Shown: positions 11,680 through 26,490 of the stretch, in pieces
Layout of the letters: every line of letters starts with the position of its first letter
Numbering within the stretch: the first letter of the stretch is position 1
Assembly: GCA_964353785.1 (NCBI GenBank)
Contig: CAYGWK010000006.1
Span: 1 to 41,646, forward strand
Reading direction: 5' to 3'
From: an uncultured Gammaproteobacteria bacterium
GTDB lineage: Bacteria; Patescibacteriota; Microgenomatia; CAYGWK01
DNA length: 41,646 nucleotides
Program-made: the position numbers and the translations under genes
The notes under the pieces: model-generated
Database searches by the model: none
Told to the model about the DNA's origin: nothing
The model's input: only the letters and a program-made list of their open reading frames with translations

Positions 11680-12641
11680 CCAGCTCATTAGTGATTACGG
11701 TTTTAAATGAAGAAAGAACAATCGAAAAACTTCTTGAGGCGTTGAGAGAACAAACCCAAAAACCAGAGGAGATTATTTTTGTTGATGGGGGGTCGACCGA
11801 TGCCACAGCATCGGTAATTTCCAATTTCCAATTTCCAATTTCCAATAAGAGAACGAAAATTAAATTTCTTGAAAAACCAGGAGCCTCAATTGCCCAAGGA
11901 AGAAATTTTGGCATAAGAAAAGCAAAAGGAGAGATTATTGTCATGACTGACGCCGGATGTATTCCTCACCGAGACTGGTTTGAAAAAATTACCGAACCTT
12001 TCAGTAAAGATGATATTGATATTGTGGCTGGATTTTATCAGATGATTGGAGAGACAGTTTTTCAAAAATGCCTGGTTTGTTATTTAGGAATTTTACCAGA
12101 AAAACTTGACCCAGAAAATTTTATGCCTTCAGCCCGCTCTATTGCTTTTAAGAAGGAAATTTGGGAGAAAATTGGTGGATTTAATGAAAAAATGGAGTGG
12201 GGAGGCGAGGATACCCTCTTTAATTATCAGGCAAAGCGTTTGGGAGCAAAATTTTTAACAGTTTCCGAGGCTTTAGTTGATTGGGAAATGTCAAAGACTT
12301 GGAGAAAAGCAATTAAAAAATTTTATGGTTATGCTAAAGGCGATGGGCAAGCCGGCATTTGGTGGCATCCAAACCAGCGGTTTTCTACCCACAACCTCAA
12401 AATTAGTGCTATCTACGCCAGATATATCCTAGGTGTAGCGCTTCTCATTATGGGATTTTGGTTAAAACCGCTATGGGCCTTACTTTTGATTGGATTTTTC
12501 TTATATCTAGTTTGGGCGGTCAGCAAGAACTATAATTATGTGAGAAGATTGAAAGCAATTTTCTTTTTGCCAACAATTCAAATTATTTCCGACTTGGCGG
12601 TGATGGCTGGTTTTCTGGTCGGAACCATCAAAAAAGTATGA
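11676..12641 (+). CDS. glycosyltransferase family 2 with C-terminal TM segments
   Basis: VITVLNEERTIEKLLEAL...FVDGGSTD...MTDAG pattern of GT-A/GT2, plus hydrophobic C-terminal helices. Contains heptamer tract 11816-11846. Confidence 0.85.
   Translation: MTSSLVITVLNEERTIEKLLEALREQTQKPEEIIFVDGGSTDATASVISNFQFPISNKRTKIKFLEKPGASIAQGRNFGIRKAKGEIIVMTDAGCIPHRDWFEKITEPFSKDDIDIVAGFYQMIGETVFQKCLVCYLGILPEKLDPENFMPSARSIAFKKEIWEKIGGFNEKMEWGGEDTLFNYQAKRLGAKFLTVSEALVDWEMSKTWRKAIKKFYGYAKGDGQAGIWWHPNQRFSTHNLKISAIYARYILGVALLIMGFWLKPLWALLLIGFFLYLVWAVSKNYNYVRRLKAIFFLPTIQIISDLAVMAGFLVGTIKKV
11816..11846 (+). repeat. tandem heptamer tract (AATTTCC) x4.4
   Basis: Counted directly: units at 11816, 11823, 11830 and 11837, plus a partial unit. 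In frame inside GT2 (peptide SNFQFPISN). Confidence 0.95.
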
Positions 12642-13396
12642 TTTCTGTTGTTATCTTAACCAAAAATGAAGAGAAAAATATTGAGGCGTGTTTGAAGACT
12701 TTGAAATGGTGCGATGAGATAGTCGTAATTGACGATAATTCAGAAGATAAGACAGTCGAGATAGCCAAAAAATTGGGCGCTAGGGTCTTTTTACGGGCTT
12801 TGGAAGGCGATTTTTCAGCCCAGAGGAATTTTGCCCTTCGGCAGGCTCAGGGTGATTGGGTTTTATTTGTTGATGCTGACGAGCAAGTCTCACCGCAACT
12901 TCGAGCAGAAATAAAATCAGCCATTAATCATGAATCATCAACCATCAATGGATTTTATTTGAAACGAGAGGATAGAATTTGGGGAAGAGTCTTAAAACAT
13001 GGAGAAACGGCTAATGTCAGACTCTTAAGACTAGCCAAAAAAACTGCTGGTACCTGGAAAAGAAGAGTTGATGAATATTGGGGAATCGCAGGTCTTACGG
13101 ATATTTTAAAAAATCCTTTGATTCACTCTCCCCATCAAACAATAAGTGAATTTTTAGAAAGTATTAATTTTTTCTCAGGTCTTAATGCCCAGGCTTTTTA
13201 CAATGAAGGGAAACAAACCACATTTGTTGATTGGTTTAAACCGCCGCTAAAATTTATCCAAAATTGGATTTTTCGTTTAGGGTTTTTGGATGGAATGCCT
13301 GGTTTTACTGTCGCTTTAATGATGAGTTTTCACTCATTTTTGGTTCGGGCAAAGCTTTATTTACTTTGGAAGCAGGAAGGAAGATGGAGCGGATGA
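12638..13396 (+). CDS. glycosyltransferase family 2
   Basis: ISVVILTKNEEKNIEACLKTLKWCDEIVVIDDNSED and FVDADE (DxD) motifs. Confidence 0.85.
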   Translation: MISVVILTKNEEKNIEACLKTLKWCDEIVVIDDNSEDKTVEIAKKLGARVFLRALEGDFSAQRNFALRQAQGDWVLFVDADEQVSPQLRAEIKSAINHESSTINGFYLKREDRIWGRVLKHGETANVRLLRLAKKTAGTWKRRVDEYWGIAGLTDILKNPLIHSPHQTISEFLESINFFSGLNAQAFYNEGKQTTFVDWFKPPLKFIQNWIFRLGFLDGMPGFTVALMMSFHSFLVRAKLYLLWKQEGRWSG

Positions 13397-13509
13397 AGAA
13401 TGTCAAATGTCAAATGTCAAATGTCAAATGTCTGCTTTTTGTTGCTTGGGCGGGATTTGTGATGATTAAATATATCCTGATGTTGGGCAAAAGGGGAGGA
13501 ATGTGGTAA
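13393..13509 (+). CDS. candidate 38-aa coupling ORF / small membrane peptide (MKNVKCQMSNVKCLLFVAWAGFVMIKYILMLGKRGGMW)
   Basis: ATG 13393 forms the same ATGA overlap with the upstream stop that links every other gene of the cluster. Its stop (13507-13509) overlaps the GTG start of the next gene. It has a hydrophobic core, and its first 13 codons are the heptamer tract. Confidence 0.3.
   Translation: MKNVKCQMSNVKCLLFVAWAGFVMIKYILMLGKRGGMW
13399..13432 (+). repeat. tandem heptamer tract (AATGTCA) x4.9
   Basis: Counted directly. Starts 3 nt after the GT2 stop codon. Confidence 0.95.
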
Positions 13510-15092
13510 GACTAGCCATCGCTTTGGGAATTTATTCTTATTTGATTTTGGCTCTGGGACTTTTGGGGCTTTTATACAAACTTCCTGTGTTTTTAGTATC
13601 TTTGCCATTTTTCGTTTGGGGAATAATTTGGATTAGAAAAAGAAAACTGAAAAATTGGGCAAATTGGAGGAAATTTGACTTATTGGAGTTACCGTTATTG
13701 GGAATTTTAGGAATTCAGGTGGTAATCAATTTTTTAGGAGCGATTTCTCCCGAACTTTCTTTTGACGCTTTGTGGTATCACCTTACTCCCCCAAAACTTT
13801 ATGTTCAAAATCATCAGATTTTCCATATTCCTGGTTGGCTTCTTTCGGTTTCAACCCTACCACGTCTGACGGAAATGTTTTACACTGTCGCCCTTCTTTT
13901 TTCAAATGAAATTTTGGCAAAACTTATCCATTTTGGTTTTGGGATTTTGGCGGCAGTCGCTTTATTTAATTTACTGAAGCGATATTTAAGTTTCAGATTT
14001 TCTCTTTTGGGAGTAGTTACTTTCTACACCATGCTTATGGTTGGCTGGCAGTCAACTACCGCTTATGTAGATTTGACGAGAACCTTTTTTGAAATTTTGG
14101 CTTTAGATTTATTTTTGAGATGGGTTGAAACAAAGAAAGAAAATTTTCTTTGGGAAGCGGGAATTTTGACTGGTTTGGCAATATCAACTAAGATTTTGGC
14201 TTTTGGGACTTTGGGGACTTTAGGGATATTGATTTTATTGGTGAGTAGAGAAAAAAAATTTGGAAGATTGGTCAAATTTGTCTTATTAGCATTGCTAGTA
14301 GTCTCGCCTTGGCTTGCTCTCTCTTTCATAAATACTGGAAACCCCTTATTTCCTCTTTTTGGAGGCGTTCGTGAACCAAGTATCTCGATTGAAGGACCAG
14401 GTTTTTCCTGGATTAGCGAGAATATCGGCAAGCTCCCACTTCTTCTTTGGAATACCACTATTCACCCAGACGATATTATTTCTCCGGTTTATCTTATTTT
14501 TCTACCTTTGGTTTTAATTTTTATCTGGAAACAAAAATTGCCAATTAAAATTACCGCTTTATACTGTCTTTTAGGAGTCTTCTTTGCTCCAGCTGCCTCT
14601 AATCGTTATCTTTTACCATATCTTCCAGGTTTAACCCTGGTAACTTTTGCTGTTTTAGATTTTTACCTTAAGCAAAAGAAAATTTTAGAAAAGATTTTTC
14701 TGGGAATTGTAATCTTCTCTGCTGTTTTAAACACTGGAAGTAGGGGACTGGCAACACAAAAATTTTTGCCTTATCTTTTGGGAAAAGAAACAAAAGCCAA
14801 GTTTTTGACTAAGTATCTTAATTTTTCTTTTGGTGATTTTTATGATGTTGACGGTTGGTTTGAGGAAAATATTAAAAAAGAAGATTTAGTTTTAATTTAT
14901 GGTATTCACAATCTTTATTATATTGATTTTCCTTATGTTCACGAATCTTGGGCGTCACCTGGTACCTATTTCACTCATATCTTGGTTGGTGGAGGAGAAA
15001 ATTTGCCGGAAAAATTTGGCAAGAAACTTCTAATTTATCAAAATCCGAAAACACAGGTAAAACTGTATGTTTTTGGAGAGAAATATAAATGA
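13503..15092 (+). CDS. GT-C fold membrane glycosyltransferase (ArnT/PMT, GT39/GT83-like)
   Basis: 529 aa, many TM helices, first-loop motif SFDALWYH, soluble C-terminal domain. GTG start; GGAGG lies only 3 nt upstream. Confidence 0.6.
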   Translation: MVRLAIALGIYSYLILALGLLGLLYKLPVFLVSLPFFVWGIIWIRKRKLKNWANWRKFDLLELPLLGILGIQVVINFLGAISPELSFDALWYHLTPPKLYVQNHQIFHIPGWLLSVSTLPRLTEMFYTVALLFSNEILAKLIHFGFGILAAVALFNLLKRYLSFRFSLLGVVTFYTMLMVGWQSTTAYVDLTRTFFEILALDLFLRWVETKKENFLWEAGILTGLAISTKILAFGTLGTLGILILLVSREKKFGRLVKFVLLALLVVSPWLALSFINTGNPLFPLFGGVREPSISIEGPGFSWISENIGKLPLLLWNTTIHPDDIISPVYLIFLPLVLIFIWKQKLPIKITALYCLLGVFFAPAASNRYLLPYLPGLTLVTFAVLDFYLKQKKILEKIFLGIVIFSAVLNTGSRGLATQKFLPYLLGKETKAKFLTKYLNFSFGDFYDVDGWFEENIKKEDLVLIYGIHNLYYIDFPYVHESWASPGTYFTHILVGGGENLPEKFGKKLLIYQNPKTQVKLYVFGEKYK

Positions 15093-16276
15093 AAAAAATT
15101 ATCCTTTGGCTGTTTTATGCTTACCTTATTTTATTTCCTTTGGGTCAGTTATTAAGAATTCCTCCGCAATCCACCAAACTTTCGGAAGTTCATTTTTTCT
15201 TAACCGATGTAGCCGCTGCCTGCATGGTTGTCCTTTGGTTGGGGTGGAAGTGGTTTAAGAAAAGTAAATTTCTTGTTCCGCCATTGACCAAGCCGATTTT
15301 ACTGTTTGCTACCTGCTGTTTGTTGTCACTTCTGGTTAACACTTCCCTATTGTCCGGTAGGGAAGAGCTTATCGCTGGATTATATCTAGTGCGTTGGGTG
15401 GTTTATGCCGGATTGTATTTTGTTATTTATGACCTTATTCATAATCCAAAAATAAAAATTTCAAATTTCAAAATCCAAATTCCAAATTTGTTAATTGGGG
15501 TGGGGGTAGCGACTGCAACCTTAGGTTTACTTCAATATATTTTTATTCCTGACACCCGGTTTTTAGAAAAATATGGTTGGGATCCGCATCTTTACCGAGT
15601 TATTGGAACTTTTTTTGACCCTGGATTTTTAGGAGCAATTTTGGTTTTAACTTTAATCCTAATAGTAGCTCTGGATTGGGAGAAGAAAAATAGACTTTTA
15701 ATATTTGCCGGGATAATAGTTTATCTTGCCCTGGCTTTGACTTATTCACGGGCTTCATATCTGGCATATCTTACGGGAATGGGAACAATTGCCTGGTTTA
15801 AAAAATCGCCAAAGTTTTTTCTGACAGTTTTTCTGGTTGGAGCAGTAACAGTTTTCCTTCTTCCCCGGCCGGAAGGAGAAGGGGTGAGGCTTGAAAGAGA
15901 AAGCACAATAAAGTATAGGATTATAAACTGGAAGCAATCTTTAACTATTGCCCAGAAAAATCCTGTTTTTGGAGTTGGCTTTAACGCTTATCGCTATGCC
16001 CAAAGAAGATACGGCTTTTTAGATATCCCAGAATGGCAAGTGACTCACGCCGGGGCTGGGGCAGACTCAAGTTTACTATTTATTTTGGCAACAACAGGGA
16101 TTGTTGGCATATCTTTCTATCTTTGGCTTTGGTGGAAAATTTTTAAAACCCGAGGCTTAATAATTCTCGCCAGCGCCTTTGCCCTTCTGGTTCACTCAAC
16201 TTTTGTCAATTCCCTTCTCTATCCCTGGCTCATGGCTTGGATGTGGATTTTGCTGGGAGGAACGAAGAATGAATAA
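15089..16276 (+). CDS. O-antigen ligase / Wzy_C-like polytopic membrane protein
   Basis: 395 aa, about 10 TM. LALTYSRASYLAYL followed by a hydrophilic loop, typical of O-antigen-ligase-like proteins. ATGA-coupled to the GT-C gene. Confidence 0.7.
   Translation: MKKIILWLFYAYLILFPLGQLLRIPPQSTKLSEVHFFLTDVAAACMVVLWLGWKWFKKSKFLVPPLTKPILLFATCCLLSLLVNTSLLSGREELIAGLYLVRWVVYAGLYFVIYDLIHNPKIKISNFKIQIPNLLIGVGVATATLGLLQYIFIPDTRFLEKYGWDPHLYRVIGTFFDPGFLGAILVLTLILIVALDWEKKNRLLIFAGIIVYLALALTYSRASYLAYLTGMGTIAWFKKSPKFFLTVFLVGAVTVFLLPRPEGEGVRLERESTIKYRIINWKQSLTIAQKNPVFGVGFNAYRYAQRRYGFLDIPEWQVTHAGAGADSSLLFILATTGIVGISFYLWLWWKIFKTRGLIILASAFALLVHSTFVNSLLYPWLMAWMWILLGGTKNE
15457..15489 (+). repeat. imperfect tandem heptamer tract (AATTTCA AATTTCA AAATCCA AATTCCA AATTT)
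   Basis: Counted directly. In frame inside the O-antigen-ligase-like gene (peptide KISNFKIQIPN). Confidence 0.9.
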
Positions 16277-17291
16277 TGGTATTTCTTTTCTTCCAGGCTT
16301 CCCATGCTTTCCGACTTTCTCTTTCTAAAATTAATCGATCTCGATACTCCTGATGGACTCGCCAGAGATTGCTAACGGCTCCCTGGATAGTCTCAACCAT
16401 CCCTTGATAATCTCCTTGGTCATATTGTTTTCCTAGTTTTGTAGTAAGACGCCTAAATACAGGCGAATCTACCCTTTCCTTATAGGGCGAGACATTAATT
16501 TCCCGATTCATTTTGTCTACTAAGTTTAGTTCACCACGGGCTGTCCTCATTACCGCTTTTTGAGCCCATCTACTTTGCTGCTCTCCAGTCATATGTTTGA
16601 GGTGATAAGCAAAATTTTTAAGTTCCTCAAAGATTGACATTGCTGTTTCTTGACAAGAATTTCTTTTTTTAATAAGGCGCAGACGCCTGATTGCAGTCCC
16701 ATAACATTTATTTCCTATATCTTGAACCCTATCAAGAATGGGAAAAACAGCATCTTGAAGAAGAATAAGGCGCTGGGTTTCATCTTGGGCTAGAGCAGCT
16801 TTACCAATAAGTCTTTCTGCTTCCTGTTTATATGCGTTTCGATTTCTCCTAGTCCGCCGAAGGAGTTGGGGCAAGAAATCTATGAGATAAAAATCTCGAG
16901 CTTCTCGAGGAAGAGAGAAGTACTGGTCTGGAATCTCAAGAAGCGCGCCAGCTAACCAGCCAAGTTTTTCAGCCTCCCCGGGGATTTTTAAGACATTATT
17001 TCGTAATTCAGGGAAGGTAGCGACTTCCCTTTTAGTCAAACCTTTTACTCTAATTCTTAACCCAAAGTATCGTTGAATGACTCGTTCATGTTGATTGATA
17101 GATTTATGGATATCTGAAATAGTAGGTTTTTTATTTTCACCCCAAAAGGCATAAACCTTGCCGTTTTCCCCTATAAAAAGTTCTCTTGTAAGTCTCTCGG
17201 CAATTGGAACAGGCATCTGGTTGGCAAAAAAATCTGGATCTTTCTCAATCTTTCGTGGCGGCAGACCAGTTTCGTGTAATCGCTCAAGCAT
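16230..17291 (-). CDS. hypothetical protein, 353 aa, basic/helical, no TM, no recognised motif
   Basis: Long uninterrupted ORF. Its start codon directly abuts the stop of the upstream Ig-like gene (17291/17292). Its 3' end overlaps the convergent O-antigen-ligase-like gene by 47 nt. Confidence 0.65.
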   Translation of the reverse strand: MLERLHETGLPPRKIEKDPDFFANQMPVPIAERLTRELFIGENGKVYAFWGENKKPTISDIHKSINQHERVIQRYFGLRIRVKGLTKREVATFPELRNNVLKIPGEAEKLGWLAGALLEIPDQYFSLPREARDFYLIDFLPQLLRRTRRNRNAYKQEAERLIGKAALAQDETQRLILLQDAVFPILDRVQDIGNKCYGTAIRRLRLIKKRNSCQETAMSIFEELKNFAYHLKHMTGEQQSRWAQKAVMRTARGELNLVDKMNREINVSPYKERVDSPVFRRLTTKLGKQYDQGDYQGMVETIQGAVSNLWRVHQEYRDRLILERESRKAWEAWKKRNTIIHSSFLPAKSTSKP

Positions 17292-18017: not shown

Positions 18018-18022
18018 AAACT

Positions 18023-18098
18023 TGGAGCCGCCTCTGGGAATCGAACCCAGGACCTTGGCTTTACGAAAGCCTTGCTCTTCCAACTAAGCTAAGGCGGC
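18023..18098 (-). tRNA. tRNA-Thr (anticodon CGT), CCA encoded
   Basis: Hand fold on the minus strand. Acceptor GCCGCCT/AGGCGGC, D stem GCTT/GAGC, anticodon loop TTCGTAA, T arm CTGGG-TTCGATT-CCCAG, then T-CCA. Confidence 0.9.
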
Positions 18099-18113
18099 CT
18101 AATTTACCACTTG

Positions 18114-18185
18114 AGCGGGAAACGGGACTTGAACCCGCGACTTCTTCCTTGGGAAGGAAGCGTTCTACCACTGAACTATTCCCGC
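18114..18185 (-). tRNA. tRNA-Gly (anticodon CCC)
   Basis: Hand fold on the minus strand. Acceptor GCGGGAA/TTCCCGC, D stem GTTC/GAAC, anticodon stem CTTCC/GGAAG with loop TTCCCAA, T arm GCGGG-TTCAAGT-CCCGT. Confidence 0.9.
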
Positions 18186-18755: not shown

Positions 18756-18805
18756 TTTTTGCCCTTGTTCACCTCCTTTAGGCAGGAGATTCGGGCAGGC
18801 TTAGG

Positions 18806-18878: not shown

Positions 18879-18890
18879 ACCGAATAACTA

Positions 18891-18919: not shown

Positions 18920-18933
18920 TGATTTGTTAATAT
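18905..18933 (+). promoter_or_regulatory. promoter of polX (-35 TTGAGG 18905-18910, 17-nt spacer, -10 TAATAT 18928-18933)
   Basis: Read directly. ATG 18945 is 11 nt downstream. The TTG at 18924 used by the ORF track lies inside the spacer. Confidence 0.45.
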
Positions 18934-18944
18934 GGAAAAAGAAA

Positions 18945-20738
18945 ATGGCTAAGGATTTTACTAATAAAGAAGTAGCCAAGATTTTACGCTCGGTGGCGGC
19001 TGCCTACGAGGTTAAAGAAGGGGATAGATTCAAGATAATGGCTTATGATCGAGCCTCCACCTCGGTTGAACATGCTACAAGCGAAGTTAAAGACCTTTGG
19101 GATGATGGAAAACTTGGTGAGCTAGCAGGGATAGGAGCCAGCATTGCTTCTCATCTCGACGAACTTTTTCGGACTGGAAAAGTCAAGCATTTTGAAGAGG
19201 TAATGAGAGGATTGCCCGAAGCGATGTTTGAGCTTTTGTCTATTCCGGGAATTGGCGCCAAAACTGCTTATAAACTTTGTCAGAAACTGGGAATTAAAGA
19301 CGTCAAAAAAGCAATCTCTCTTCTTGAGGGATATGCAAAGAAAGGAAAGATTAGGGTAATTGAGGGGTTTGGGGAAGAATCAGAAAAAGATATTCTTCGG
19401 GGAATCGAGGAGTTTCGGCGAAAAACCACCAGAATCCTTTTGCCTTACGCAAGCCAAATAGCCGAAGATATACTTTCTTGGCTTAGAAAGTCCCCGAGCG
19501 TCATTCGTGCCGATCCCCTAGGTTCGCTTCGGAGAATGGTTTCAACAGTTGGGGATGTTGATATTGCGGCGGCGACTAATAAACCAAAAGAGGTTATTGC
19601 TCATTTTGTTGCTTATCCAAAGAAAAAAAGAGTTCTTGAGGCTGGAACAGCTACCGCCTCTATAGTCCTCAAATCTGGCTATCAGGTGGACCTGATGGTT
19701 CAACCAGTTTCTTCTTACGGAGCCCTTCTACAGCACTTCACGGGCTCCAAACAGCACAATATTGCCCTTCGCGAACTGGCTCTTAAAAAAGGACTTTCTT
19801 TGTCTGAATATGGGATAAAGAAAGGCAAAACACTCAAAGAATACGCGTCTGAAGAAGACTTCTATAAAGCCTTGGGGATGGATTGGATTCCTTCAGAAAT
19901 AAGGGAGGATAGCGGAGAAATCGAAGCTGCCCTTCGCTCCGCTCAGGGTAAACCAGGTGGTTTACCGAAATTGGTAGAGTTAAAGGATATCAAAGGCGAT
20001 CTTCACATTCATTCTGATTTCCCGATTGAAACAAGTCACGACGAAGGGACGGGCTCAATAGAGGAAATTATGGAAAAAGGTCTTAAGCTTGGCTATGAGT
20101 ATGTAGGATTCACTGAGCATAACCCAAGTACGAGTAAACATAAACCAGAGCAAATAGTTAATATTTTGAAGCGCAAAAAAGAGAAGATTGAAGATATAAA
20201 TTACTCTTATGAAAAAAGAGGAAAGAATATGTTCATTAGAGGGCTAAACAGCCTTGAGATAGATATAAAACCTGATGGAACATTGGGAATTCCGGAAGAA
20301 GGTTTAAAAGTTCTAGATTACGCCATTGTTTCAATTCATACTAGTTTTAGGATGGGAAAAGTTGACATGACTAAGCGAGTCTTGACTGCTTTGGAACATC
20401 CAAAAGTGAAAATCTTGGGACACCCAACAGGGAGAAAATTGAATCAGAGGGAGGGGTATGAGCTTGATTGGGAAAAAATTTTTGATTTTTGTCTCCGGAA
20501 GAAAAAGTGGCTTGAGGTCAACGCCTGGCCCGATAGACTTGATCTTCCAGACATCCTGGTCAGAGAGGCGGTAGAAAAGGGAGTAAAAATGGTTGTTTGT
20601 ACTGATTCTCACGCCTTGGACCAGATGGATTTGATGCGCTATGGAGTGGCGGTAGCCAGAAGGGGATGGGCGGAGAAGAGTGATATTGTCAACACATTAG
20701 GCTATAATGAATTCCTGGAAACACTGGAAAGGGGGTGA
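18945..20738 (+). CDS. polX: family X DNA polymerase with C-terminal PHP domain (PolX)
   Basis: Pol-beta-like N-terminus (NKEVAKILRSVAAAYEVKEGDRFKIMAYDRA, HhH GIGAKTA, GDVDIAA). PHP motifs DLHIHSDF, FTEHNP, SIHTSF, TDSH. Confidence 0.85.
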   Translation: MAKDFTNKEVAKILRSVAAAYEVKEGDRFKIMAYDRASTSVEHATSEVKDLWDDGKLGELAGIGASIASHLDELFRTGKVKHFEEVMRGLPEAMFELLSIPGIGAKTAYKLCQKLGIKDVKKAISLLEGYAKKGKIRVIEGFGEESEKDILRGIEEFRRKTTRILLPYASQIAEDILSWLRKSPSVIRADPLGSLRRMVSTVGDVDIAAATNKPKEVIAHFVAYPKKKRVLEAGTATASIVLKSGYQVDLMVQPVSSYGALLQHFTGSKQHNIALRELALKKGLSLSEYGIKKGKTLKEYASEEDFYKALGMDWIPSEIREDSGEIEAALRSAQGKPGGLPKLVELKDIKGDLHIHSDFPIETSHDEGTGSIEEIMEKGLKLGYEYVGFTEHNPSTSKHKPEQIVNILKRKKEKIEDINYSYEKRGKNMFIRGLNSLEIDIKPDGTLGIPEEGLKVLDYAIVSIHTSFRMGKVDMTKRVLTALEHPKVKILGHPTGRKLNQREGYELDWEKIFDFCLRKKKWLEVNAWPDRLDLPDILVREAVEKGVKMVVCTDSHALDQMDLMRYGVAVARRGWAEKSDIVNTLGYNEFLETLERG

Positions 20739-20744
20739 AAAAAT

Positions 20745-21326
20745 ATGTTTTGGATTCTAATAATCATTTTGGTTGGATTGACAGTTTATATTTGGTCTTT
20801 ATATAACCAATTTGTTACCATAAAAACCCGAATTCGGGCTTCGATTCAAGAGATTGGCAATCAATTAAAAAGACAGGCAGACTTAATTCCCAATCTTGTT
20901 TCTTCGGTTAAAGGCTATATGAAGCACGAAAAAGCAATTTTTGATGAGCTGACTGAAGCCAGAAAAGCGGTTATGAAGGTAATTGAGACAGAAGACGCTC
21001 AAAAACTGATAAATGCAGGTAGCCGGCTTCAATCTGCTTTGGCGCCGATTCGGGCAGTCTTTGAATCAACGCCTCAACTTCAGGCGGCTGGGCCGACCGC
21101 AAAACTTATGGATGAGCTTCGGGATACGGCTGATAAGGTAATGTATTCGCGGAGAACCCTAATCGATCTTTCGGCTGACTATAATATCAAGGTGGTCACT
21201 TTTCCTTCAAATTTAGTGGCCCGGCTTTTTGGCTTTAAACTTGAAGTGGGACTTAAAATGCCTGAAGGAGGAGAAGAATTAGAAGTAAAAGAGGAGGAAA
21301 CAAAGACACCGAAAGTGGAGCTTTAG
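20745..21326 (+). CDS. lemA: LemA family protein
   Basis: N-terminal TM, then YNQFVTIKTRIRASIQEIGNQLKRQADLIPNLV and FPSNLVARLFGF, typical of LemA. Confidence 0.85.
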   Translation: MFWILIIILVGLTVYIWSLYNQFVTIKTRIRASIQEIGNQLKRQADLIPNLVSSVKGYMKHEKAIFDELTEARKAVMKVIETEDAQKLINAGSRLQSALAPIRAVFESTPQLQAAGPTAKLMDELRDTADKVMYSRRTLIDLSADYNIKVVTFPSNLVARLFGFKLEVGLKMPEGGEELEVKEEETKTPKVEL

Positions 21327-21332
21327 AGAAGA

Positions 21333-22235
21333 ATGATCAATGTTTATGAGCAAGTAGATCGCAATAAAAGGCGAAGCACCATTATTATGGTGTTATTTGT
21401 AGTCTTTATTGCTGCCTTTGCCTGGGTTTTATCTCGCATCTTAGGCTATGGGCCTGGGATGGTTGGCATAGCTTTTATTTTTGCCGGAATTTTTTCTTTT
21501 TCAAGTTATTGGTGGGGAGACAGAATAATTCTGGCTATTTCTGGAGCAAGAGAAGCCGATAAAAAGAGAGATTTTAACTTTTTCACTGTGGCGGAAAATC
21601 TCTCGATGGCCGCCCAAATTCCCATGCCGAAATTATATGTGATTGATGACTCGGCTCCGAATGCTTTTGCTACCGGCCGGGATCCAGAGCACGCCGTCGT
21701 TTGCGCCACCACCGGGCTCTTGGCAAAACTTGATCGGACTGAGCTTGAAGGGGTAGTCGCCCATGAACTTTCTCATGTTCAGAATTATGACACAAGGCTT
21801 ATGAGTGTGGTCACTATTTTGGTGGGGATGGTTACTCTTTTAGCCGATTGGTTTTTGAGAGGGATGAGATTTGGAGGTCGAGATAGAGACGAAAAAGAAG
21901 GAAATATTGGGGTAATTTTATTTTTGGTGGGAATAATTTTGGCCTTACTTTCACCCTTAATCGCCCAACTGATTCAATTGGCAATTTCCCGAAGACGAGA
22001 ATTTTTATCTGATGCTTCGGCGGTTATGCTAACCCGTTATCCTGAAGGTCTAGCTAGGGCTTTAGAGAAAATTTCCAAAGATAGAGAAGTTCTTGAGGTC
22101 GCTAATAAAGCCACGGCCCATCTTTATATTATTAATCCTTTTAAAGGCCAAAAATTTACAGGTATGTTTTCAAATTTATTTAATACCCATCCCCCGGTGG
22201 AGGAGAGAATAAAAGCGTTAAGAGAAATGGTATGA
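21333..22235 (+). CDS. htpX: M48-family zinc protease HtpX
   Basis: HELSHVQNYD (HExxH), NAFATG, EFLSDASA, four TM segments. Next to lemA, a common pairing. Confidence 0.9.
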   Translation: MINVYEQVDRNKRRSTIIMVLFVVFIAAFAWVLSRILGYGPGMVGIAFIFAGIFSFSSYWWGDRIILAISGAREADKKRDFNFFTVAENLSMAAQIPMPKLYVIDDSAPNAFATGRDPEHAVVCATTGLLAKLDRTELEGVVAHELSHVQNYDTRLMSVVTILVGMVTLLADWFLRGMRFGGRDRDEKEGNIGVILFLVGIILALLSPLIAQLIQLAISRRREFLSDASAVMLTRYPEGLARALEKISKDREVLEVANKATAHLYIINPFKGQKFTGMFSNLFNTHPPVEERIKALREMV

Positions 22236-22552
22236 TAAAAAATTCCAAATTCCAAATTCCAAATTCCAAATTAACTGAAGAAGAAGTGAAGCATGTGGCG
22301 AAGCTGGCGAAACTGGAGTTGACTCCTCAAGAAGTTAAAAAATTCCAAAAACAACTTTCTGAAGTCTTAAATTATGTGGAAATTCTCAAGAAGGTTAAAA
22401 CAGAGAGGGTGGAACCTACCTCGCAAGTTACTGGTCTTGAAAATATTTTTAGAGAAGATAAAGTCAGCCCCTCACTTTCTCAAAAAGAAGTTTTATCTGG
22501 GGCTGAGAATAAGAAAGACAATATGTTTAAAACCAAAGCAGTCCTTGAATAA
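22232..22552 (+). CDS. gatC: aspartyl/glutamyl-tRNA amidotransferase subunit C
   Basis: TEEEVKHVAKLAKLELTPQE...LNYVEIL matches the GatC core. The 13-aa N-terminal extension is encoded by the heptamer tract. ATGA overlap with htpX. Confidence 0.85.
   Translation: MIKNSKFQIPNSKLTEEEVKHVAKLAKLELTPQEVKKFQKQLSEVLNYVEILKKVKTERVEPTSQVTGLENIFREDKVSPSLSQKEVLSGAENKKDNMFKTKAVLE
22241..22272 (+). repeat. tandem heptamer tract (AATTCCA) x4.6
   Basis: Counted directly. Begins at codon 4 of gatC (peptide NSKFQIPNSKL). Confidence 0.95.
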
Positions 22553-23953
22553 ATGCATCTCTATCAATTAACTTTAAGAGAAGCCCAGGAGGGATTACAG
22601 AAGGGAAAATTTTCCAGCCTTGAACTGGTGAGGTCTTGTCTTGAGAGGATTAAGAAATTTGATTCCAAAATCCACGCTTTTATCACCGTTTGTGAAAAAG
22701 AAGCGCTGGAACAGGCAAGACAAGCAGATAAAGCGCTGGACCATCAACCATTACTGGGAATCCCCATTGCTATCAAGGATATTTTCTGCACCAAGGGAAT
22801 AAGGACAACTGCTGGTTCTTGTGTTTTGGAAAATTATATTCCAGCATATGATTCAACCGTGGTTGGGAAACTTAAACAAGCAGGAGCAATAATCTTGGGC
22901 AAAACCAATATGGACGCCTGGGCTCACGGCTCCTCTGGTGAAAACTCTGATTTTTTCCCAACCAAAAATCCCTGGAGTCTGAAACTTGTCCCTGGTGGCT
23001 CAAGCAGTGGTTCGGCAGCGGCGGTGGCCGCAGAAATGGCAATGGCGGCAACGGGTTCGGATACTGGTGGCTCAATTCGTTTACCTGCTTCATTTTGTAA
23101 TCTTGTTGGGCTCAAGCCTTCATATGGCCGGGTTTCCCGCTATGGAGTGGTTGCCATGGCTTCATCTTTAGACACCATGGGTCATCTAACAAAAGATGTG
23201 ACTGACTCGGCCATTATTTTAAATATCATTGCCGGAAAGGACTTACATGATTCAACCACTCCTGAAAAACCAGTTCCTAACTATTTAAAAAATCTCAAAA
23301 AGGGAATTAGGGGTTTGAAAATAGGAGTGCCCAAGGAATATTTTATTGAAGGAATGGATTTAAAAGTAAAAGAGAAAGTCCGAGAGGCAGTAAAAGTCTT
23401 AGAAAAATTGGGAGCAGAGATTTTGGAAATTTCTCTTCCTCATGCCAAGTATGCTTTAGCGGTTTACTATATTATTCAACCTTCTGAAGTTTCTTCTAAT
23501 TTAGCCAGATATGATGGAATAAGATATGGATTTCCCAGAGAAAAATTTGCTGACGAGGCAAGAAGAAGAATCATGCTTGGAACCTATACCCTGTCGGCCG
23601 GATACTATGAAGCTTATTATTTGAAAGCGATGCAGGTTAGAACTTTAATCAAAAAAGACTTTGATGAAGCGTTTAAAAAAGTAGATGTTTTAGTTGCTCC
23701 AGTTTCACCAAGTTTGCCTTTTAAACTTGGGGAAAAGGTTGCCGATCCCCTCAAAATGTATCTTTCAGATATCTTTACGGTAACGGCTAACTTAGCTGGA
23801 ATTCCAGGTTTGGCAATTCCGGCTGGGTTTGTTAACGGTCTTCCAGTAGGCATCCAAATTCTCGGACCACAATTTTCTGAAGAGATTTTATTTCAGGTAG
23901 GTTATGCTTATGAACAAGAAACCAAATGGTGTAAGCGAAAACCAGTATTTTAA
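22553..23953 (+). CDS. gatA: aspartyl/glutamyl-tRNA amidotransferase subunit A
   Basis: Amidase signature GGSSSGSAAAVAA...GSDTGGSIRLPASFC; 466 aa. Confidence 0.95.
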   Translation: MHLYQLTLREAQEGLQKGKFSSLELVRSCLERIKKFDSKIHAFITVCEKEALEQARQADKALDHQPLLGIPIAIKDIFCTKGIRTTAGSCVLENYIPAYDSTVVGKLKQAGAIILGKTNMDAWAHGSSGENSDFFPTKNPWSLKLVPGGSSSGSAAAVAAEMAMAATGSDTGGSIRLPASFCNLVGLKPSYGRVSRYGVVAMASSLDTMGHLTKDVTDSAIILNIIAGKDLHDSTTPEKPVPNYLKNLKKGIRGLKIGVPKEYFIEGMDLKVKEKVREAVKVLEKLGAEILEISLPHAKYALAVYYIIQPSEVSSNLARYDGIRYGFPREKFADEARRRIMLGTYTLSAGYYEAYYLKAMQVRTLIKKDFDEAFKKVDVLVAPVSPSLPFKLGEKVADPLKMYLSDIFTVTANLAGIPGLAIPAGFVNGLPVGIQILGPQFSEEILFQVGYAYEQETKWCKRKPVF

Positions 23954-23954
23954 T

Positions 23955-25193
23955 ATGAAAAGTTCGTTTTTTGAAGTTGCAAAAATAAAAAATTTCCGAA
24001 AAATTTGGGGTTCACAGATTTTGTCTCAAGGGACCCTGAATCTTATTAATTTTGTCATAATTTTGCGCATTTTTGAGGCAACTCACTCAACGGTGGCTGT
24101 TTCTTTAGTTTGGATTTTTTATGCCATCCCAGCCACACTTCTTGGGCCATTCTCAGGTACTATTGTTGACCTTTTTCAAAAGAGAAAAATTTTAATGTAC
24201 ACCACTTTTTTTGAGGCTATCATTGTTCTCTGTTATCTTTTAGTTAAACAAAAACTTTGGCCAATTTACTCGGTTATTTTTCTTTACTCTTTGGTTAATC
24301 AACTCTACATTCCGGCTGAAGCTTCAACCATGCCTTGGGTTGTTTCCAAGAATCTTCTTCCAGTGGCAAACTCACTTTTTCTTTTTACAATTTATGGTGC
24401 TTTTTTGGTTGGCTTTGGTTTGGCTGGACCATTGGTGAGAATAGTCGGCCATGAAGTTCCATTTATCCTTGGATTTGTTTTTTTAATGACTGCTTCTCTT
24501 TTTGTTTCCGGTTTGCCAAAGGAAGAGAAAAAAGGAAAAATTAGTGATGTTCAAGATTTCTTAATAAGGGTGAAAGAAGGTTATCTTTTTATTAAGGGAG
24601 AGCCCTCGATTCTCTTTCCTTTACTCCTGCTTGTTTTTTCTCAAGTAGTGGTGGGAATTATTGCGGTTCTGTCTCCTTCTTTAGCTACAGAGATCCTTTC
24701 GATTGACCTTTTGGATGCCGGACCAACCTTGATTTTACCAGCTGGTTTTGGGGCCATAATTGGAGCGCTGGGGGTAACTTCACTCCTGAGAAGAAAAATT
24801 CGCAAGAAAAAAATTATTTCATTTGGATTTTTCCTCTCTGCTGTTTCGCTTCTTTCTATAGCCACAGTTGTGCCATTGTTGGGTAGCCTTCGCGCTCTGG
24901 TAGCATTGGGAATTGCCTTTTTGCTTGGAATAGGCTTTGTTTCCATAATTATTCCGGTTCAGACTCTTCTTCAGGAAAAAACCCCAGAGGATAAAAGAGG
25001 TCGAGTTTTTGGGGTTTTGGGGTTTGCTATAACCCTAACCTCGATTTTGCCCGTTCTTTTGACAGCGACTATTGCCGAAATTTTAGGAACCAATTTTATG
25101 ATAGGAATAATTTCTCTCCTTGTTGGAGTTTTAGGGGTTTACTCTTTAAGGGAGCCATATGAGGTATACGTTCAGTCCGATAATAGGACTTGA
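23955..25193 (+). CDS. MFS transporter
   Basis: About 12 TM helices; N-terminus NFRKIWGSQILSQ is typical of MFS_3/enterobactin-exporter-like proteins. ATG 23955 (1 nt after the gatA stop) is preferred over the 23904 model, which overlaps gatA. Confidence 0.8.
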   Translation: MKSSFFEVAKIKNFRKIWGSQILSQGTLNLINFVIILRIFEATHSTVAVSLVWIFYAIPATLLGPFSGTIVDLFQKRKILMYTTFFEAIIVLCYLLVKQKLWPIYSVIFLYSLVNQLYIPAEASTMPWVVSKNLLPVANSLFLFTIYGAFLVGFGLAGPLVRIVGHEVPFILGFVFLMTASLFVSGLPKEEKKGKISDVQDFLIRVKEGYLFIKGEPSILFPLLLLVFSQVVVGIIAVLSPSLATEILSIDLLDAGPTLILPAGFGAIIGALGVTSLLRRKIRKKKIISFGFFLSAVSLLSIATVVPLLGSLRALVALGIAFLLGIGFVSIIIPVQTLLQEKTPEDKRGRVFGVLGFAITLTSILPVLLTATIAEILGTNFMIGIISLLVGVLGVYSLREPYEVYVQSDNRT

Positions 25194-26490
25194 GGTCCAT
25201 ATTGAACTTGAAACCGAAAGCAAGATGTTTTGTTCATGCATCGCTTCCCATTTTGGCAAAAAGCCAAATACCCAAGTCTGTCCAGTTTGTTTGGGTTTGC
25301 CTGGGGCTCTGCCAGCACCGAATAAGAAGGCAATTGAATGGACAGCTCTTTTGGGGGTGGCTTTAGATTGCCAAATTTTGCCGGCATCTAAATTCGACCG
25401 GAAGAATTATTTCTATCCAGATTTGCCTAAAGGCTATCAGATAAGCCAATATGAGATGCCGCTGACACGTAATGGCAAATGGCAAATGGCAAATGGCAAA
25501 TGGTTCCGAATAAGAAGGGTTCATTTGGAAGAAGATACTGGAAAATTGATTCATGAAGCAGGATCTACTCTGATAGACTTCAATAGATCTGGAGTGCCGC
25601 TTTTAGAGATTGTGACCGAACCAGACATTTCCTCGGCTTTGGAAGCCAAAGAATTCTTGGAAAAGCTTCAGCAGATTGTTCGCTACCTTGGAATTTCTCA
25701 AGCGGATATGGAAAAAGGACAGATGAGGTGCGAGCCAACAGTTAATTTAGAAATTAAAAAAGAAGGGAAAACATTTTACACCCCGCTGGTTGAAATTAAA
25801 AATATAAACTCTTTTCGTTTTGTCCAGAAGGCGATTGATTTTGAAATTAAGCGACAGATTCAAGAATTTGAAAAAACCCAAATAGAGAAAAAGCCTGGAA
25901 ACAAGACCACCCGTGGATGGAGTGAAACTTTGGGTGAGACAGTTCCCCAAAGAGTCAAAGAAGAAGCAGCTGATTACCGCTACTTTCCTGAACCTGATAT
26001 TCCTCCAATTCACTGGACTCAATCTCAAATCTCAAATCTCAAATCTCAAATCTCTGAATTACCAGATGAAAAAATTGCCAGGTTTATCAAAGAATATGGA
26101 TTATCTGAATATAATGCTCAAATACTGGCTGAAACCAGAGAAGTTGCAGATTATTTTGAAGAAGCCCTTCGACAAGCTCGGGGTAAACTGGAGTCGACTA
26201 TGATTGCCAACTGGATTGTTAATAAAAGAGTGGATATTAGCCGGACGAAGCCTAAAGACCTGGTTAATCAAATTTTAGCATTAGCAAAGAAACCAGCAAT
26301 TAAAGAAGAAGAACTGGAAGAGATTATCAAAAAAGTTTTGGAGAAAAACCCAAAAGCAGTCGTAGACTACAAAAAAGGGAAAGTTCAGTCTTTGGAGTTT
26401 TTAGTTGGGCAAGTAGTCAAGGAAGCCAAAGGTAAGGCAGATCCAAATCTTTGCCGAAAACTTCTTCTTGAAGCGTTAAACGCCTCTTGA
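25159..26490 (+). CDS. gatB: aspartyl/glutamyl-tRNA amidotransferase subunit B
   Basis: IGLEVHIELETESKMFC, CPVCLGLPGALP, RVHLEEDTGKL, RCEPTVN, YRYFPEPDIPP and a C-terminal YqeY-like tail. Contains two heptamer tracts. Confidence 0.95.
   Translation: MRYTFSPIIGLEVHIELETESKMFCSCIASHFGKKPNTQVCPVCLGLPGALPAPNKKAIEWTALLGVALDCQILPASKFDRKNYFYPDLPKGYQISQYEMPLTRNGKWQMANGKWFRIRRVHLEEDTGKLIHEAGSTLIDFNRSGVPLLEIVTEPDISSALEAKEFLEKLQQIVRYLGISQADMEKGQMRCEPTVNLEIKKEGKTFYTPLVEIKNINSFRFVQKAIDFEIKRQIQEFEKTQIEKKPGNKTTRGWSETLGETVPQRVKEEAADYRYFPEPDIPPIHWTQSQISNLKSQISELPDEKIARFIKEYGLSEYNAQILAETREVADYFEEALRQARGKLESTMIANWIVNKRVDISRTKPKDLVNQILALAKKPAIKEEELEEIIKKVLEKNPKAVVDYKKGKVQSLEFLVGQVVKEAKGKADPNLCRKLLLEALNAS
25471..25503 (+). 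repeat. tandem heptamer tract (AATGGCA) x4.7
   Basis: Counted directly. In frame in gatB (peptide NGKWQMANGKW). Confidence 0.95.
26021..26054 (+). repeat. tandem heptamer tract (AATCTCA) x4.9
   Basis: Counted directly. In frame in gatB (peptide SQISNLKSQIS). Confidence 0.95.

What the first reader, a model, noticed from the sequence alone, without database searches (positions are those of the whole stretch)
11816..26054. Dispersed family of six tandem heptamer tracts (AATNNCA)x4.4-4.9, same strand and same length, mostly in frame inside genes
The tracts are 11816-11846 (AATTTCC), 13399-13432 (AATGTCA), 15457-15489 (AATTTCA/AATTCCA, imperfect), 22241-22272 (AATTCCA), 25471-25503 (AATGGCA) and 26021-26054 (AATCTCA). 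All read in the same orientation on the plus strand. All are 31-34 nt long. All share the frame AAT..CA, and the central dinucleotide differs between tracts but is homogeneous within a tract. Independent microsatellites would not be expected to share unit consensus, copy number and orientation. Five tracts are translated. Because 3 x 7 = 21, any frame gives the 7-aa period N-x-K-x-Q-(I/M)-x, seen as SNFQFPISN, ISNFKIQIPN, NSKFQIPNSK, NGKWQMANGKW and SQISNLKSQIS. A change of one unit (7 nt) would frameshift the host gene. Possible explanations: contingency (phase-variation) loci, footprints of a templated insertion or repair process, or arrays of binding sites for a DNA- or RNA-binding factor. 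I know of no description of such a family.
Basis: seen in the sequence. Interest (0 to 1): 0.7.

Follow-up and report, generated by a model that had tools for sequence, protein, structure and literature searches.

The report
Intragenic heptamer microsatellites in Shapirobacteria
A candidate-phyla-radiation bacterium carries perfect 7-base tandem repeats, each about 33 bases long and in frame inside ordinary genes at positions shared with relatives; they behave as slippage-prone microsatellites that evolve in concert and can split a gene when one unit is lost.

Summary
The window has six period-7 arrays of 31-34 nt, five of them perfect, plus a seventh decayed one; no other period gives any array. 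The window is a MAG contig from Candidatus Shapirobacteria (Microgenomates, CPR).

All arrays lie in reading frames: GT2, a conserved 38-codon ORF, a Wzy-like ligase, GatC, and GatB twice.

Independent assemblies of relatives carry perfect arrays at the same sites. The units often differ between relatives, with no length change. The arrays are therefore not artefacts, and codon choice shows they are not by-products of the peptides.

Array density is about 1 per 9 kb in this clade against about 1 per 650 kb in 80 control loci.

Two near-identical contigs (99.8%) differ by one indel: the loss of exactly one unit in a GatB array, which splits gatB.

Best reading: these are slipped-strand microsatellites that evolve in concert and are tolerated where the protein is permissive. 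Unit changes frameshift the gene. Whether they are selected contingency switches is open: about 40 other alleles showed no length change.

Still unexplained: the common ~33-nt length, the shared CAAAT core, and clustering in the glycosylation and gatCAB modules.

Verdict: a new variant of a known kind.

The parts
11816..11846 (+). Array 1: (AATTTCC)x4.4, perfect, 31 nt. Codons 47-57 (VISNFQFPISN) of GT2 glycosyltransferase 11676-12641.
   Evidence: Orthologues L210 and L211 have ordinary sequence of slightly different length at this site.
12919..12950 (+). Decayed seventh array (CATTAAT CATGAAT CATCAAC CATCAAT) in the second GT2 gene, 12638-13396.
   Evidence: Lag-7 scan gives 17/21. The ungapped orthologous site in L212 is a perfect (ACAAGCA)x3.1.
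13399..13432 (+). Array 2: (AATGTCA)x4.9, perfect, 34 nt. Codons 3-14 of a conserved 38-codon ORF (13393-13509). This ORF overlaps the GT2 stop (ATGA) and the GT39/PMT_2-like start.
   Evidence: L212 carries the identical array and the same small ORF.
15456..15489 (+). Array 3: imperfect (AAATTTC/AAAATCC/AAATTCC), 34 nt. Codons 123-134 of the Wzy_C O-antigen-ligase-like protein 15089-16276.
   Evidence: The orthologue in L212 is a perfect (AAATTGG)x4.7.
22240..22272 (+). Array 4: (AAATTCC)x4.7, perfect, 33 nt. Codons 3-14 of GatC 22232-22552, forming an N-terminal extension.
   Evidence: Orthologues carry AAAACGC (L003), ACAACAA (L085), AAATTCC (L208), a decayed array (L001, L002) or none (L209, L210).
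25471..25503 (+). Array 5: (AATGGCA)x4.7, perfect, 33 nt. Codons 105-115 (NGKWQMANGKW) of GatB 25159-26490. The segment is a beta-hairpin before the RVHLEED motif.
26021..26054 (+). Array 6: (AATCTCA)x4.9, perfect, 34 nt. Codons 288-299 (QSQISNLKSQIS) of GatB. The segment is a helix after the YFPEPDIPP motif, at the junction between the matches to Pfam GatB_N and GatB_Yqey.
   Evidence: A one-unit deletion allele of the orthologous array occurs in L213.

Best explanation
The tracts are a lineage-specific family of intragenic heptanucleotide microsatellites.

SHOWN:
- They are perfect DNA repeats, not consequences of the peptide sequence.
- They sit at orthologous sites in relatives.
- Units change all-or-none between lineages with no change in length.
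- In nature an array can lose exactly one unit, which frameshifts the host gene.

INFERRED:
- Slipped-strand mispairing within an array creates and continually homogenises the units. This could happen through loss and regain of units, or through out-of-register pairing followed by repair.
- Selection for an intact frame and a workable protein then keeps only arrays that are in frame, free of stop codons in all three phases, about 11 codons long, and located in structurally permissive segments (a hairpin, a linker helix, N-termini).
- The array-encoded peptide becomes part of the protein. It stays under protein-level selection even after an array stops being homogenised and decays.

Unit gain or loss acts as an on/off frameshift, but on present evidence this is mainly a side effect rather than a demonstrated adaptive switch. 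The reason for a 7-nt unit would be a property of the replication or repair machinery. PMC4692102 cites the proposal that heptamers match the DNA segment held at the polymerase active site.
For: DNA-level periodicity:
- The codon choices needed for perfect periodicity, given the peptides, have joint P of about 1e-19.

Not an artefact:
- The same arrays appear in independent NCBI, JGI and ENA assemblies, including MEGAHIT k141 contigs, whose k-mer exceeds the array length.

Lineage-specific:
- There are 21 perfect arrays of 27 nt or more in 183 kb of this clade, against 2 in about 1.29 Mb of GatB loci from other taxa. This is about 74-fold.

Concerted evolution:
- Between the window and the L003/L212 lineage, flanks are about 83% identical in nucleotides and 72-81% at third codon positions.
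- Over the same divergence three arrays are 98/101 nt identical, while others are wholly replaced without indels: AAATTCC vs AAAACGC, AAATTYC vs AAATTGG, CATCAAT vs ACAAGCA.
- Decayed arrays differ mostly at synonymous positions, plus one conservative Leu-to-Ile change, and keep essentially the same peptide (L002, L205 and L214 at GatB site 2).

Slippage:
- L213 and L004 are 99.8% identical over 5.96 kb. Their only indel is a 7-nt unit deletion in the GatB site-2 array, which splits gatB into ORFs of 320 and 122 aa.

Permissive sites:
- The arrays encode a confident beta-hairpin and a helix in the GatB model.
- The site-2 array aligns without gaps to the native segment of Aquifex GatB. The site-1 hairpin aligns with two 2-residue gaps and is 4 residues shorter than in Aquifex.

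Other:
- Array flanks share no motif.
- Every perfect array of 27 nt or more has a unit free of stop codons in all three frames.
Against: - Simple slippage predicts a spread of copy numbers. Lengths are instead tightly set at 32.7 +/- 2.3 nt at every site, and nothing of 21-30 nt occurs in the window.
- A 7-nt step is a frameshift in essential genes, so the intermediates of loss/regain cycles should be strongly selected against. No length-preserving homogenising step has been identified.
- The shared CAAAT core is seen in 5 of 6 units against 1.9% expected. It is not predicted by composition plus stop avoidance.
- All seven window sites fall in two gene modules that make up 18% of the window. 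This hints at selection on where arrays sit.
- Three arrays kept perfect across about 17% nucleotide divergence could equally reflect selection for perfect repeats.
Confidence: 0.5

Rival explanations
1. Selected contingency (phase-variation) loci. In this reading the arrays are kept perfect because stochastic one-unit frameshifts are advantageous. They would switch cell-envelope glycosylation genes on and off (GT2, the leader ORF coupled to GT39, the Wzy-like ligase). They would also switch the GatCAB amidotransferase, whose loss would change translational fidelity or growth state.
For: - A natural one-unit-deleted allele was the consensus sequence of one sample.
- All seven window sites lie in the glycosylation cluster or gatCAB, which together make up 18% of the window (post hoc P about 1e-5).
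- Glycosyltransferases and O-antigen ligases are classical phase-variable gene classes (own knowledge).
- Two arrays start at codon 3 of their ORFs. Enrichment of repeats near N-termini is a signature of tuned phase variation (PMC3315296).
- Arrays stay perfect beyond what protein-level constraint predicts.
Against: - Only 1 of roughly 40 array-bearing alleles differs in unit number, and all others are in frame. By contrast neuO ranges from 3 to 53 units and 66% of genomes are OFF (PMC13001214).
- At 4.4-5 units the copy number is low for a fast switch.
- Several arrays sit mid-gene in housekeeping genes (GatB, GatA, PolX).
- Some lineages let arrays decay while keeping the peptide.
Confidence: 0.25
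2. Cis-acting arrays of binding sites. In this reading a DNA- or RNA-binding factor with 7-nt register recognises the CAAAT core of 4-5 consecutive heptads. One model is a ribbon-helix-helix protein of the kind that binds heptad operators. The arrays would be maintained for that function, and the coding context would be incidental in a gene-dense genome.
For: - The CAAAT core is strongly over-represented: 5/6 in the window, and CAAA in 12/20 distinct units against 8.9% expected.
- The common length of about 33 nt, roughly three helical turns, holds at all sites and even for the rare period-8 arrays.
- Perfect arrays are conserved across lineages.
Against: - Many perfect arrays in relatives lack the core: GTTTCAG, ATCAGTC, AAATTGG, AAAACGC, ACAAGCA.
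- Orthologous arrays swap units freely.
- No array lies in a promoter or intergenic region.
- Decayed arrays vary mostly at synonymous positions, which points to protein-level rather than DNA-level constraint.
- No candidate binding protein was identified.
Confidence: 0.1
3. Footprints of a templated insertion or repair process, or of a very small mobile cassette. In this reading a patch of about 33 nt is written at once, for example by reiterative copying of a short template during break or gap repair. Arrays would then be born full-length rather than grown.
For: - Length is quantised at about 33 nt, with no intermediate sizes in the window.
- Units are replaced wholesale by unrelated units, without indels, between relatives whose flanks are 83-90% identical.
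- Period-8 arrays have similar total length.
- A family X polymerase gene lies in the window (18924-20738). This is circumstantial only.
Against: - Flanks show no conserved motif, target duplication or terminal sequence.
- The mean divergence of units (about 24% of unit positions) matches third-position divergence, as expected for gradual concerted evolution (my own tally).
- Heterogeneous intermediates exist. L209 site 1 reads AATGGCA AATTTCA AATTTCA AATGTCA AATGGCT.
- A one-unit step was observed directly.
Confidence: 0.1
4. The repeats are either an assembly artefact or a by-product of selection for a 7-residue periodic peptide.
For: The lengths of 31-34 nt are close to common assembler k-mer sizes. 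The encoded peptides do have a 7-residue period.
Against: - The same arrays occur in independent assemblies from different groups and assemblers, including k = 141 contigs.
- All arrays keep their genes in frame.
- The codon choice required for perfect periodicity has joint P of about 1e-19 given the peptides.
- Peptides differ completely between orthologous arrays.
Confidence: 0.02

Closest known systems
Lineage-specific heptameric SSR families: GGGAATC repeats of Xanthomonas, GGGGA(T/C)T repeats of Nostoc (PMC4692102), and the STRR heptamers of heterocystous cyanobacteria (Calothrix heptanucleotides cited there; STRR name from my own knowledge)
   Same: - Tandem 7-nt units.
- Strong over-representation restricted to particular lineages.
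- Many dispersed loci sharing a unit consensus with variable positions.
- A marked preference for about four units.
- Loci conserved between relatives while sequence and length vary.
   Different: [quoted passage not shown]
- The arrays here are A-rich and G-poor (46% A, 9% G).
- They lie inside reading frames, stay in frame, and keep their length.
neuO 5' heptanucleotide repeat (AAGACTC)n of E. coli K1 (PMC13001214)
   Same: - A heptanucleotide SSR inside a coding sequence near the 5' end.
- It is translated as a 7-residue periodic peptide because 3 x 7 = 21.
- Strand slippage by one unit frameshifts the gene.
   Different: - neuO ranges from 3 to 53 units, and 66% of genomes are OFF.
- It is a single locus on a prophage.
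- Here there are 4.4-5 units, nearly invariant, at many loci including housekeeping genes.
Classical SSR contingency loci of Haemophilus, Neisseria, Campylobacter and Helicobacter (PMC3315296, PMC2651432; own knowledge)
   Same: - Slipped-strand mispairing within intragenic repeats.
- Frameshift on/off switching.
- Glycosyltransferase and LPS-type target genes.
- Some arrays sit at the N-terminus.
   Different: - Units there are usually 1-5 nt, with higher and variable copy number.
- They are not found at conserved positions in essential translation genes.
- Hypervariability is documented there and not here.
Heptad operator/centromere arrays bound by the omega ribbon-helix-helix repressor of inc18 plasmids (5'-WATCACW-3'; own knowledge, not checked here)
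   Same: Contiguous 7-bp units in arrays of several copies. The unit format resembles AATNNCA.
   Different: - Those arrays lie in promoters of a plasmid.
- They have one fixed unit and mixed orientations.
- They have a known cognate protein; none of this is seen here.

Membership tests
SSR contingency locus (phase variation by slipped-strand mispairing) | Perfect tandem repeat of a short unit inside an ORF or promoter | tested here: met
   Five perfect period-7 arrays and one imperfect array, all in ORFs.
SSR contingency locus (phase variation by slipped-strand mispairing) | A unit-number change shifts the reading frame, and such alleles occur in nature | tested here: met
   L213 vs L004: a 7-nt unit deletion is the only indel in 5.96 kb at 99.8% identity. 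gatB is split into 320 + 122 aa.
SSR contingency locus (phase variation by slipped-strand mispairing) | Copy number hypervariable among closely related strains, with ON and OFF alleles both common | tested here: not met
   About 40 other array-bearing alleles of GatB, Wzy, GatC and the 38-codon ORF all keep the same length and frame. Caveat: these are consensus sequences, and the cluster lists would hide truncated members.
SSR contingency locus (phase variation by slipped-strand mispairing) | High, reversible switching rate within a population | not testable with these tools
   Needs raw reads or cultures.
SSR contingency locus (phase variation by slipped-strand mispairing) | Host genes encode surface or host-interaction functions | tested here: inconclusive
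   Four of seven window sites lie in a glycosylation/O-antigen-ligase cluster. Three lie in gatC/gatB. Relatives also carry arrays in gatA and polX.
Heptameric intergenic SSR families (Xanthomonas GGGAATC, Nostoc GGGGAYT, STRR) | Tandem heptamers, strongly enriched in one lineage, about four units preferred | tested here: met
   About 74-fold enrichment over control loci. Length 32.7 +/- 2.3 nt. Compared with PMC4692102.
Heptameric intergenic SSR families (Xanthomonas GGGAATC, Nostoc GGGGAYT, STRR) | Mostly intergenic and under-represented in coding regions | tested here: not met
   In the window and the close relatives, every perfect array of 27 nt or more, and every window site, lies inside a called or conserved ORF.
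Heptameric intergenic SSR families (Xanthomonas GGGAATC, Nostoc GGGGAYT, STRR) | G-rich unit able to form a G-quadruplex | tested here: not met
   Arrays are 46% A, 26% T, 19% C and 9% G, with no G-runs.
neuO-type intragenic heptanucleotide VNTR | A heptanucleotide repeat in the 5' coding region, translated, with length variation in units between strains | tested here: inconclusive
   Two of six arrays start at codon 3 (GatC and the 38-codon ORF). All are translated. Length is conserved except in L213.
Heptad operator arrays of RHH repressors (omega type) | One fixed heptad sequence in promoter regions, with a cognate RHH protein | tested here: not met
   Units differ between arrays, and none is in a promoter. 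No RHH gene was searched for genome-wide, which is not possible with 41.6 kb.

The most novel reading that the evidence does not exclude
In this reading the arrays are actively maintained mutational switches. Possibly they also serve as landing pads for small GC-rich palindromic inserts. They would let a reduced-genome CPR bacterium toggle two modules stochastically: envelope glycosylation, and the GatCAB amidotransferase and with it translational fidelity or growth state. A lineage-specific homogenising process would keep each array perfect at a fixed length of about 33 nt. That would make this a form of phase variation acting inside essential housekeeping genes, in a phylum where none has been described.
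Probability: 0.2. Interest if true: 0.8.

Novelty: new variant of a known kind. Interest (0 to 1): 0.58.

Why it matters
Heptamer repeats are known to be oddly over-represented in some bacteria, and the reason is unknown. This clade offers a clean natural experiment: short perfect arrays sit at alignable positions inside conserved genes and can be compared across many lineages.

Three things follow:
- The rate and mode of concerted evolution can be measured against the flanking codons.
- The arrays show that a 7-nt microsatellite can persist inside essential genes.
- A natural gatB allele split by the loss of one unit shows the cost, or the possible use, directly.

If read-level data show frequent unit changes, this would be the first evidence of phase variation in candidate-phyla-radiation bacteria. 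It would involve cell-envelope glycosylation and tRNA-dependent amidation. If not, the arrays remain a useful marker of a lineage-specific replication or repair peculiarity, and a caution for annotating frameshifted or split genes in such genomes.

Tried and rejected
I used them as controls, not as orthologues.
- The metagenome-contig scan with the MFS protein returned only two loci.
- The viral-contig scan for (AATNNCA)x4 returned mostly unrelated simple repeats, many in giant-virus bins. I did not pursue it.
- The first two cluster look-ups found no in-frame (+/-3 unit) length variants. The two largest length differences in the third look-up were checked and were start-site calls. Differences of 1 to 3 residues were not examined.
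- Rfam found no known RNA overlapping the arrays, only four tRNAs.
- Flanks were checked for target-site motifs and none was found.
- Elhai et al. 2008, on small mobile repeats in cyanobacteria, could not be read.
- Literature searches for heptamer repeats in CPR/Patescibacteria found nothing specific.
- I rejected ribosomal-frameshift slippery sites, because only AAATTTC fits the X XXY YYZ pattern.
- I rejected G-quadruplex and hairpin structures, because the arrays are G-poor direct repeats.
- The same-strand observation could not be tested against replication or transcription direction, because almost all genes in the loci are co-oriented.


Full report
OBSERVATION

TRF reports all six tracts. 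The pattern (AATNNCA)x3 with up to two mismatches gives 17 matches against 0.51 expected. Sixteen of these are on the + strand inside the six tracts.

An exact scan finds five perfect period-7 runs: 11816-11846, 13399-13432, 22240-22272, 25471-25503 and 26021-26054, of 31-34 nt. It finds no perfect run of three or more units for any other period from 1 to 15.

A mismatch-tolerant lag scan gives six segments at lag 7. It gives none at lags 4-6 or 8-12 and none in shuffles. At a lower threshold it reveals a seventh, decayed array at 12919-12950.

Tract 1 (AATTTCC) does not strictly fit AAT..CA. The other five share the cyclic core CAAAT, which is expected in only 1.9% of stop-free heptamers under the window's dinucleotide composition.

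CONTEXT

The window is an ordinary chromosomal segment of a candidate-phyla-radiation bacterium. Its genes include rodA/ftsW, L21/L27, parB, a glycosylation cluster, polX, lemA, htpX, gatC-gatA-MFS-gatB, a GGDEF protein, dnaE, pyrG, L19, ruvC and four tRNAs.

GatB relatives and 90%-identity cluster members are named Candidatus Shapirobacteria / Microgenomates. The window's proteins are on record from one NCBI contig of 41,646 nt.

The arrays form these codons:
- 47-57 of a GT2 glycosyltransferase
- 123-134 of a Wzy_C ligase-like protein
- 3-14 of GatC
- 105-115 and 288-299 of GatB

Tract 2 lies after the stop of the second GT2 gene, but it forms codons 3-14 of a 38-codon ORF. This ORF overlaps both neighbours and is conserved in L212 and L211. 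The downstream GT39-like protein starts at 13503, as it does in its homologues. All six tracts are therefore probably translated.

REAL, AND A DNA-LEVEL FEATURE

Independent JGI, ENA and NCBI assemblies of relatives carry perfect arrays at the same sites. These include MEGAHIT k141 contigs, whose k-mer exceeds the array length.

Given the encoded peptides and the window's codon usage, the codon choices needed for perfect periodicity have probabilities of 1e-3 to 1e-5 per array. Jointly this is about 1e-19. The periodicity therefore belongs to the DNA, not to the peptide.

LINEAGE SPECIFICITY

Ten non-redundant loci of the clade (183 kb) hold 21 perfect arrays of 27 nt or more. Their mean length is 32.7 nt with SD 2.3.

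Eighty GatB loci from other taxa (about 1.29 Mb) hold two, both 27 nt. These loci include Curtissbacteria, another Shapirobacteria, WWE3 and Moranbacteria. The difference is about 74-fold.

Within the wider group the arrays are not universal:
- L210 has none in 21.6 kb (GT39 78% identical, 34% GC).
- L214 has only a decayed array (GatB 58% identical).

ORTHOLOGOUS SITES, CHANGING UNITS

Aligned GatB proteins show 7-residue periodic peptides at the same two sites in many relatives of 58-85% identity. The peptides differ between lineages. At the DNA level:
- Site 1 is (AATGGCA)n in the window and L003, (AGTTCAA)n in L002, (AAGTTCC)n in L206 and (GTTTCAG)n in L001.
- Site 1 is a mixed array in L209: AATGGCA AATTTCA AATTTCA AATGTCA AATGGCT.
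- Site 2 is (AATCTCA)n in the window and L003, (AAATTTC)n in L206 and L208, and (AAATATC)n in L001.
- Site 2 is decayed in L002, L205 and L214. The changes there are mostly synonymous, plus one conservative Leu-to-Ile change, and the peptide stays essentially KSQISNLKSQIP.

Other sites behave the same way:
- The GatC N-terminus carries AAATTCC, AAAACGC, ACAACAA, a decayed array, or none.
- The Wzy site is imperfect in the window and a perfect (AAATTGG)x4.7 in L212.
- The second GT2 site is decayed in the window and (ACAAGCA)x3.1 in L212, in an ungapped alignment.
- Further sites occur in gatA and polX of relatives.

Between the window and the L003/L212 lineage, flanking coding DNA is about 83% identical overall and 72-81% identical at third positions. 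Over the same divergence three arrays are 98/101 identical, while the GatC and Wzy arrays are 61% and 74% identical. Change is therefore all-or-none, which is the signature of concerted evolution. By my own tally, about 10 of 42 unit positions differ, which is close to third-position divergence.

SLIPPAGE OBSERVED

The 90% cluster of the closest GatB contains a 320-aa member whose C-terminus is the out-of-frame reading that follows the site-2 array.

Its contig is L213 (ENA ERZ27293399). It is 99.8% identical over 5.96 kb to L004, which comes from sample ERZ27293400. There are four mismatches and a single 7-nt gap, which is the loss of one AATCTCA unit. gatB becomes two ORFs, of 320 aa (GatB_N) and 122 aa (GatB_Yqey).

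No other length variant was seen among roughly 40 array-bearing alleles of GatB, Wzy, GatC and the small ORF. The two largest length differences in the third look-up (+21 and +16 residues) were checked and are start-site calls. Four smaller differences of 1 to 3 residues were not examined.

PROTEIN CONTEXT

In an AlphaFold model (mean pLDDT 83), array 5 forms a confident beta-hairpin (strands 103-109 and 115-125). Array 6 forms helix 288-296.

Against Aquifex GatB (3H0L), the site-2 array aligns without gaps to the native segment KKEWIEEIKKNMPELP. The site-1 hairpin aligns with two 2-residue gaps and is 4 residues shorter than in Aquifex.

The arrays therefore replace native elements of regular secondary structure rather than adding loops. 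The exception is the GatC N-terminus, where the array is an extension.

OTHER PROPERTIES

- Every perfect array of 27 nt or more has a unit free of stop codons in all three phases on the coding strand. About half of the units would contain stops in the reverse orientation.
- Arrays are A-rich and G-poor (46% A, 9% G), although the + strand has G > C.
- Flanks share no motif.
- All seven window sites lie in the glycosylation cluster or gatCAB, which together make up 18% of the window. This test is post hoc.
- A few period-8 arrays of 22-35 nt also occur in relatives.
- Long (AATCTCA)n arrays of 12-18 units exist in other organisms, where they are read as spurious small ORFs. One is from a Microcoleus cyanobacterium.

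MECHANISM

The best-supported reading is that these are heptanucleotide microsatellites driven by slipped-strand mispairing. Four things are shown: DNA-level perfection, positional orthology, all-or-none unit change, and a natural one-unit deletion.

Two things are inferred. First, misalignment within an array homogenises the units, either through loss/regain cycles or through out-of-register pairing and repair. Second, selection for frame, for the absence of stops, and for a workable 11-residue segment confines the arrays to permissive places and to one length class.

Decayed arrays that keep their peptide show that the encoded segment has become an ordinary constrained part of the protein.

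What this model does not explain:
- the single preferred length of about 33 nt
- the CAAAT bias
- the concentration in two gene modules
- how homogenisation avoids lethal frameshift intermediates in gatB

The rivals address these gaps. The selected-switch reading uses the same mechanism but treats the frameshift as the function. It is favoured by the gene classes, the two codon-3 arrays and the L213 allele. It is disfavoured by the near-absence of length variation and by decay in some lineages. Binding-site arrays and one-step templated patches are not excluded but have less support.

COMPARISON WITH KNOWN SYSTEMS

Heptamer SSRs are known to be over-represented in some bacteria. One proposal is that the cause lies in the DNA segment held at the polymerase active site (PMC4692102).

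The Xanthomonas GGGAATC and Nostoc GGGGAYT families share lineage specificity, a unit consensus with variable positions, and a preference for about four units. They differ in being G-rich, intergenic and variable in length.

The neuO heptanucleotide repeat shares translation as a heptad peptide and frameshift by slippage. It differs in ranging from 3 to 53 units and being OFF in 66% of genomes (PMC13001214).

I found no description of in-frame, positionally conserved heptamer arrays in CPR housekeeping genes. I therefore rate this a new variant of a known kind.

Noticed in passing
L208:10344-10410 (GatB site 1); L208:7024-7160 and L206:77-220 (GatC N-termini): GC-rich palindromic sequences are inserted in frame inside heptamer arrays. 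One example is a 57-nt insert, CTGCCTTGCCGGCAGGCAGG...CCGCCTTCCGGCGGG..., flanked by AAATTCC units. Insertions of different length and sequence sit at the same loop in GatB P0007, P0031, P0037, P0047 and P0068, and P0037's is the L208 insert itself. They resemble the in-frame palindromic elements of Rickettsia (own knowledge). The arrays may be their preferred target, or may simply mark permissive sites.
   Followed up: partly
L213:324-1651 versus L004:353-1687: A natural gatB allele is split into a 320-aa catalytic part and a 122-aa YqeY-like part by the loss of one heptamer unit. The two ORFs overlap by 4 nt, so the split protein might still be made as two chains.
   Followed up: partly
window 13393-13509: A conserved 38-codon ORF (MKNVKCQMSNVKCLLFVAWAGFVMIKYILMLGKRGGMW) overlaps the GT2 stop (ATGA) and the start of the GT39-like gene. 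It is also called in L212 (591-707) and L211 (9903-10007). It looks like a translationally coupled leader or small membrane peptide, and it carries array 2.
   Followed up: partly
L206:4394-4422, L211:11605-11639, L205:11329-11350; L209 GatB site 2 (within 10823-10891): Perfect period-8 arrays of 22-35 nt (ATTAGTTA, ATTGCTAT, AATTAGCA), and an (AGATATTA)x2.4 repeat at the very site where other lineages have a heptamer array. Total length, rather than unit number, may be the conserved quantity.
   Followed up: no
proteins P0314-P0338, P0352, P0320: Long (AATCTCA)n arrays of about 12-18 units exist in other metagenomic organisms, where they are read as spurious 47-74 aa ORFs. One is from a Microcoleus cyanobacterium. 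P0320 mixes AATCTCA and AATGTCA units in one array. These are the same two units as window arrays 6 and 2.
   Followed up: no
window 33780-35051: A Bmp/PnrA-like lipoprotein gene has 51% GC in a 39% GC window. It carries 27-nt and 21-nt tandem repeats at 33875-33968. It may be foreign, or it may have a low-complexity linker.
   Followed up: no
L210 (GCA_964487495.1, 21.6 kb) and L214 (17.7 kb): Syntenic relatives lack the arrays. L210 has none and L214 has only one decayed array. The trait is therefore patchy within the group and could be correlated with gene content.
   Followed up: partly
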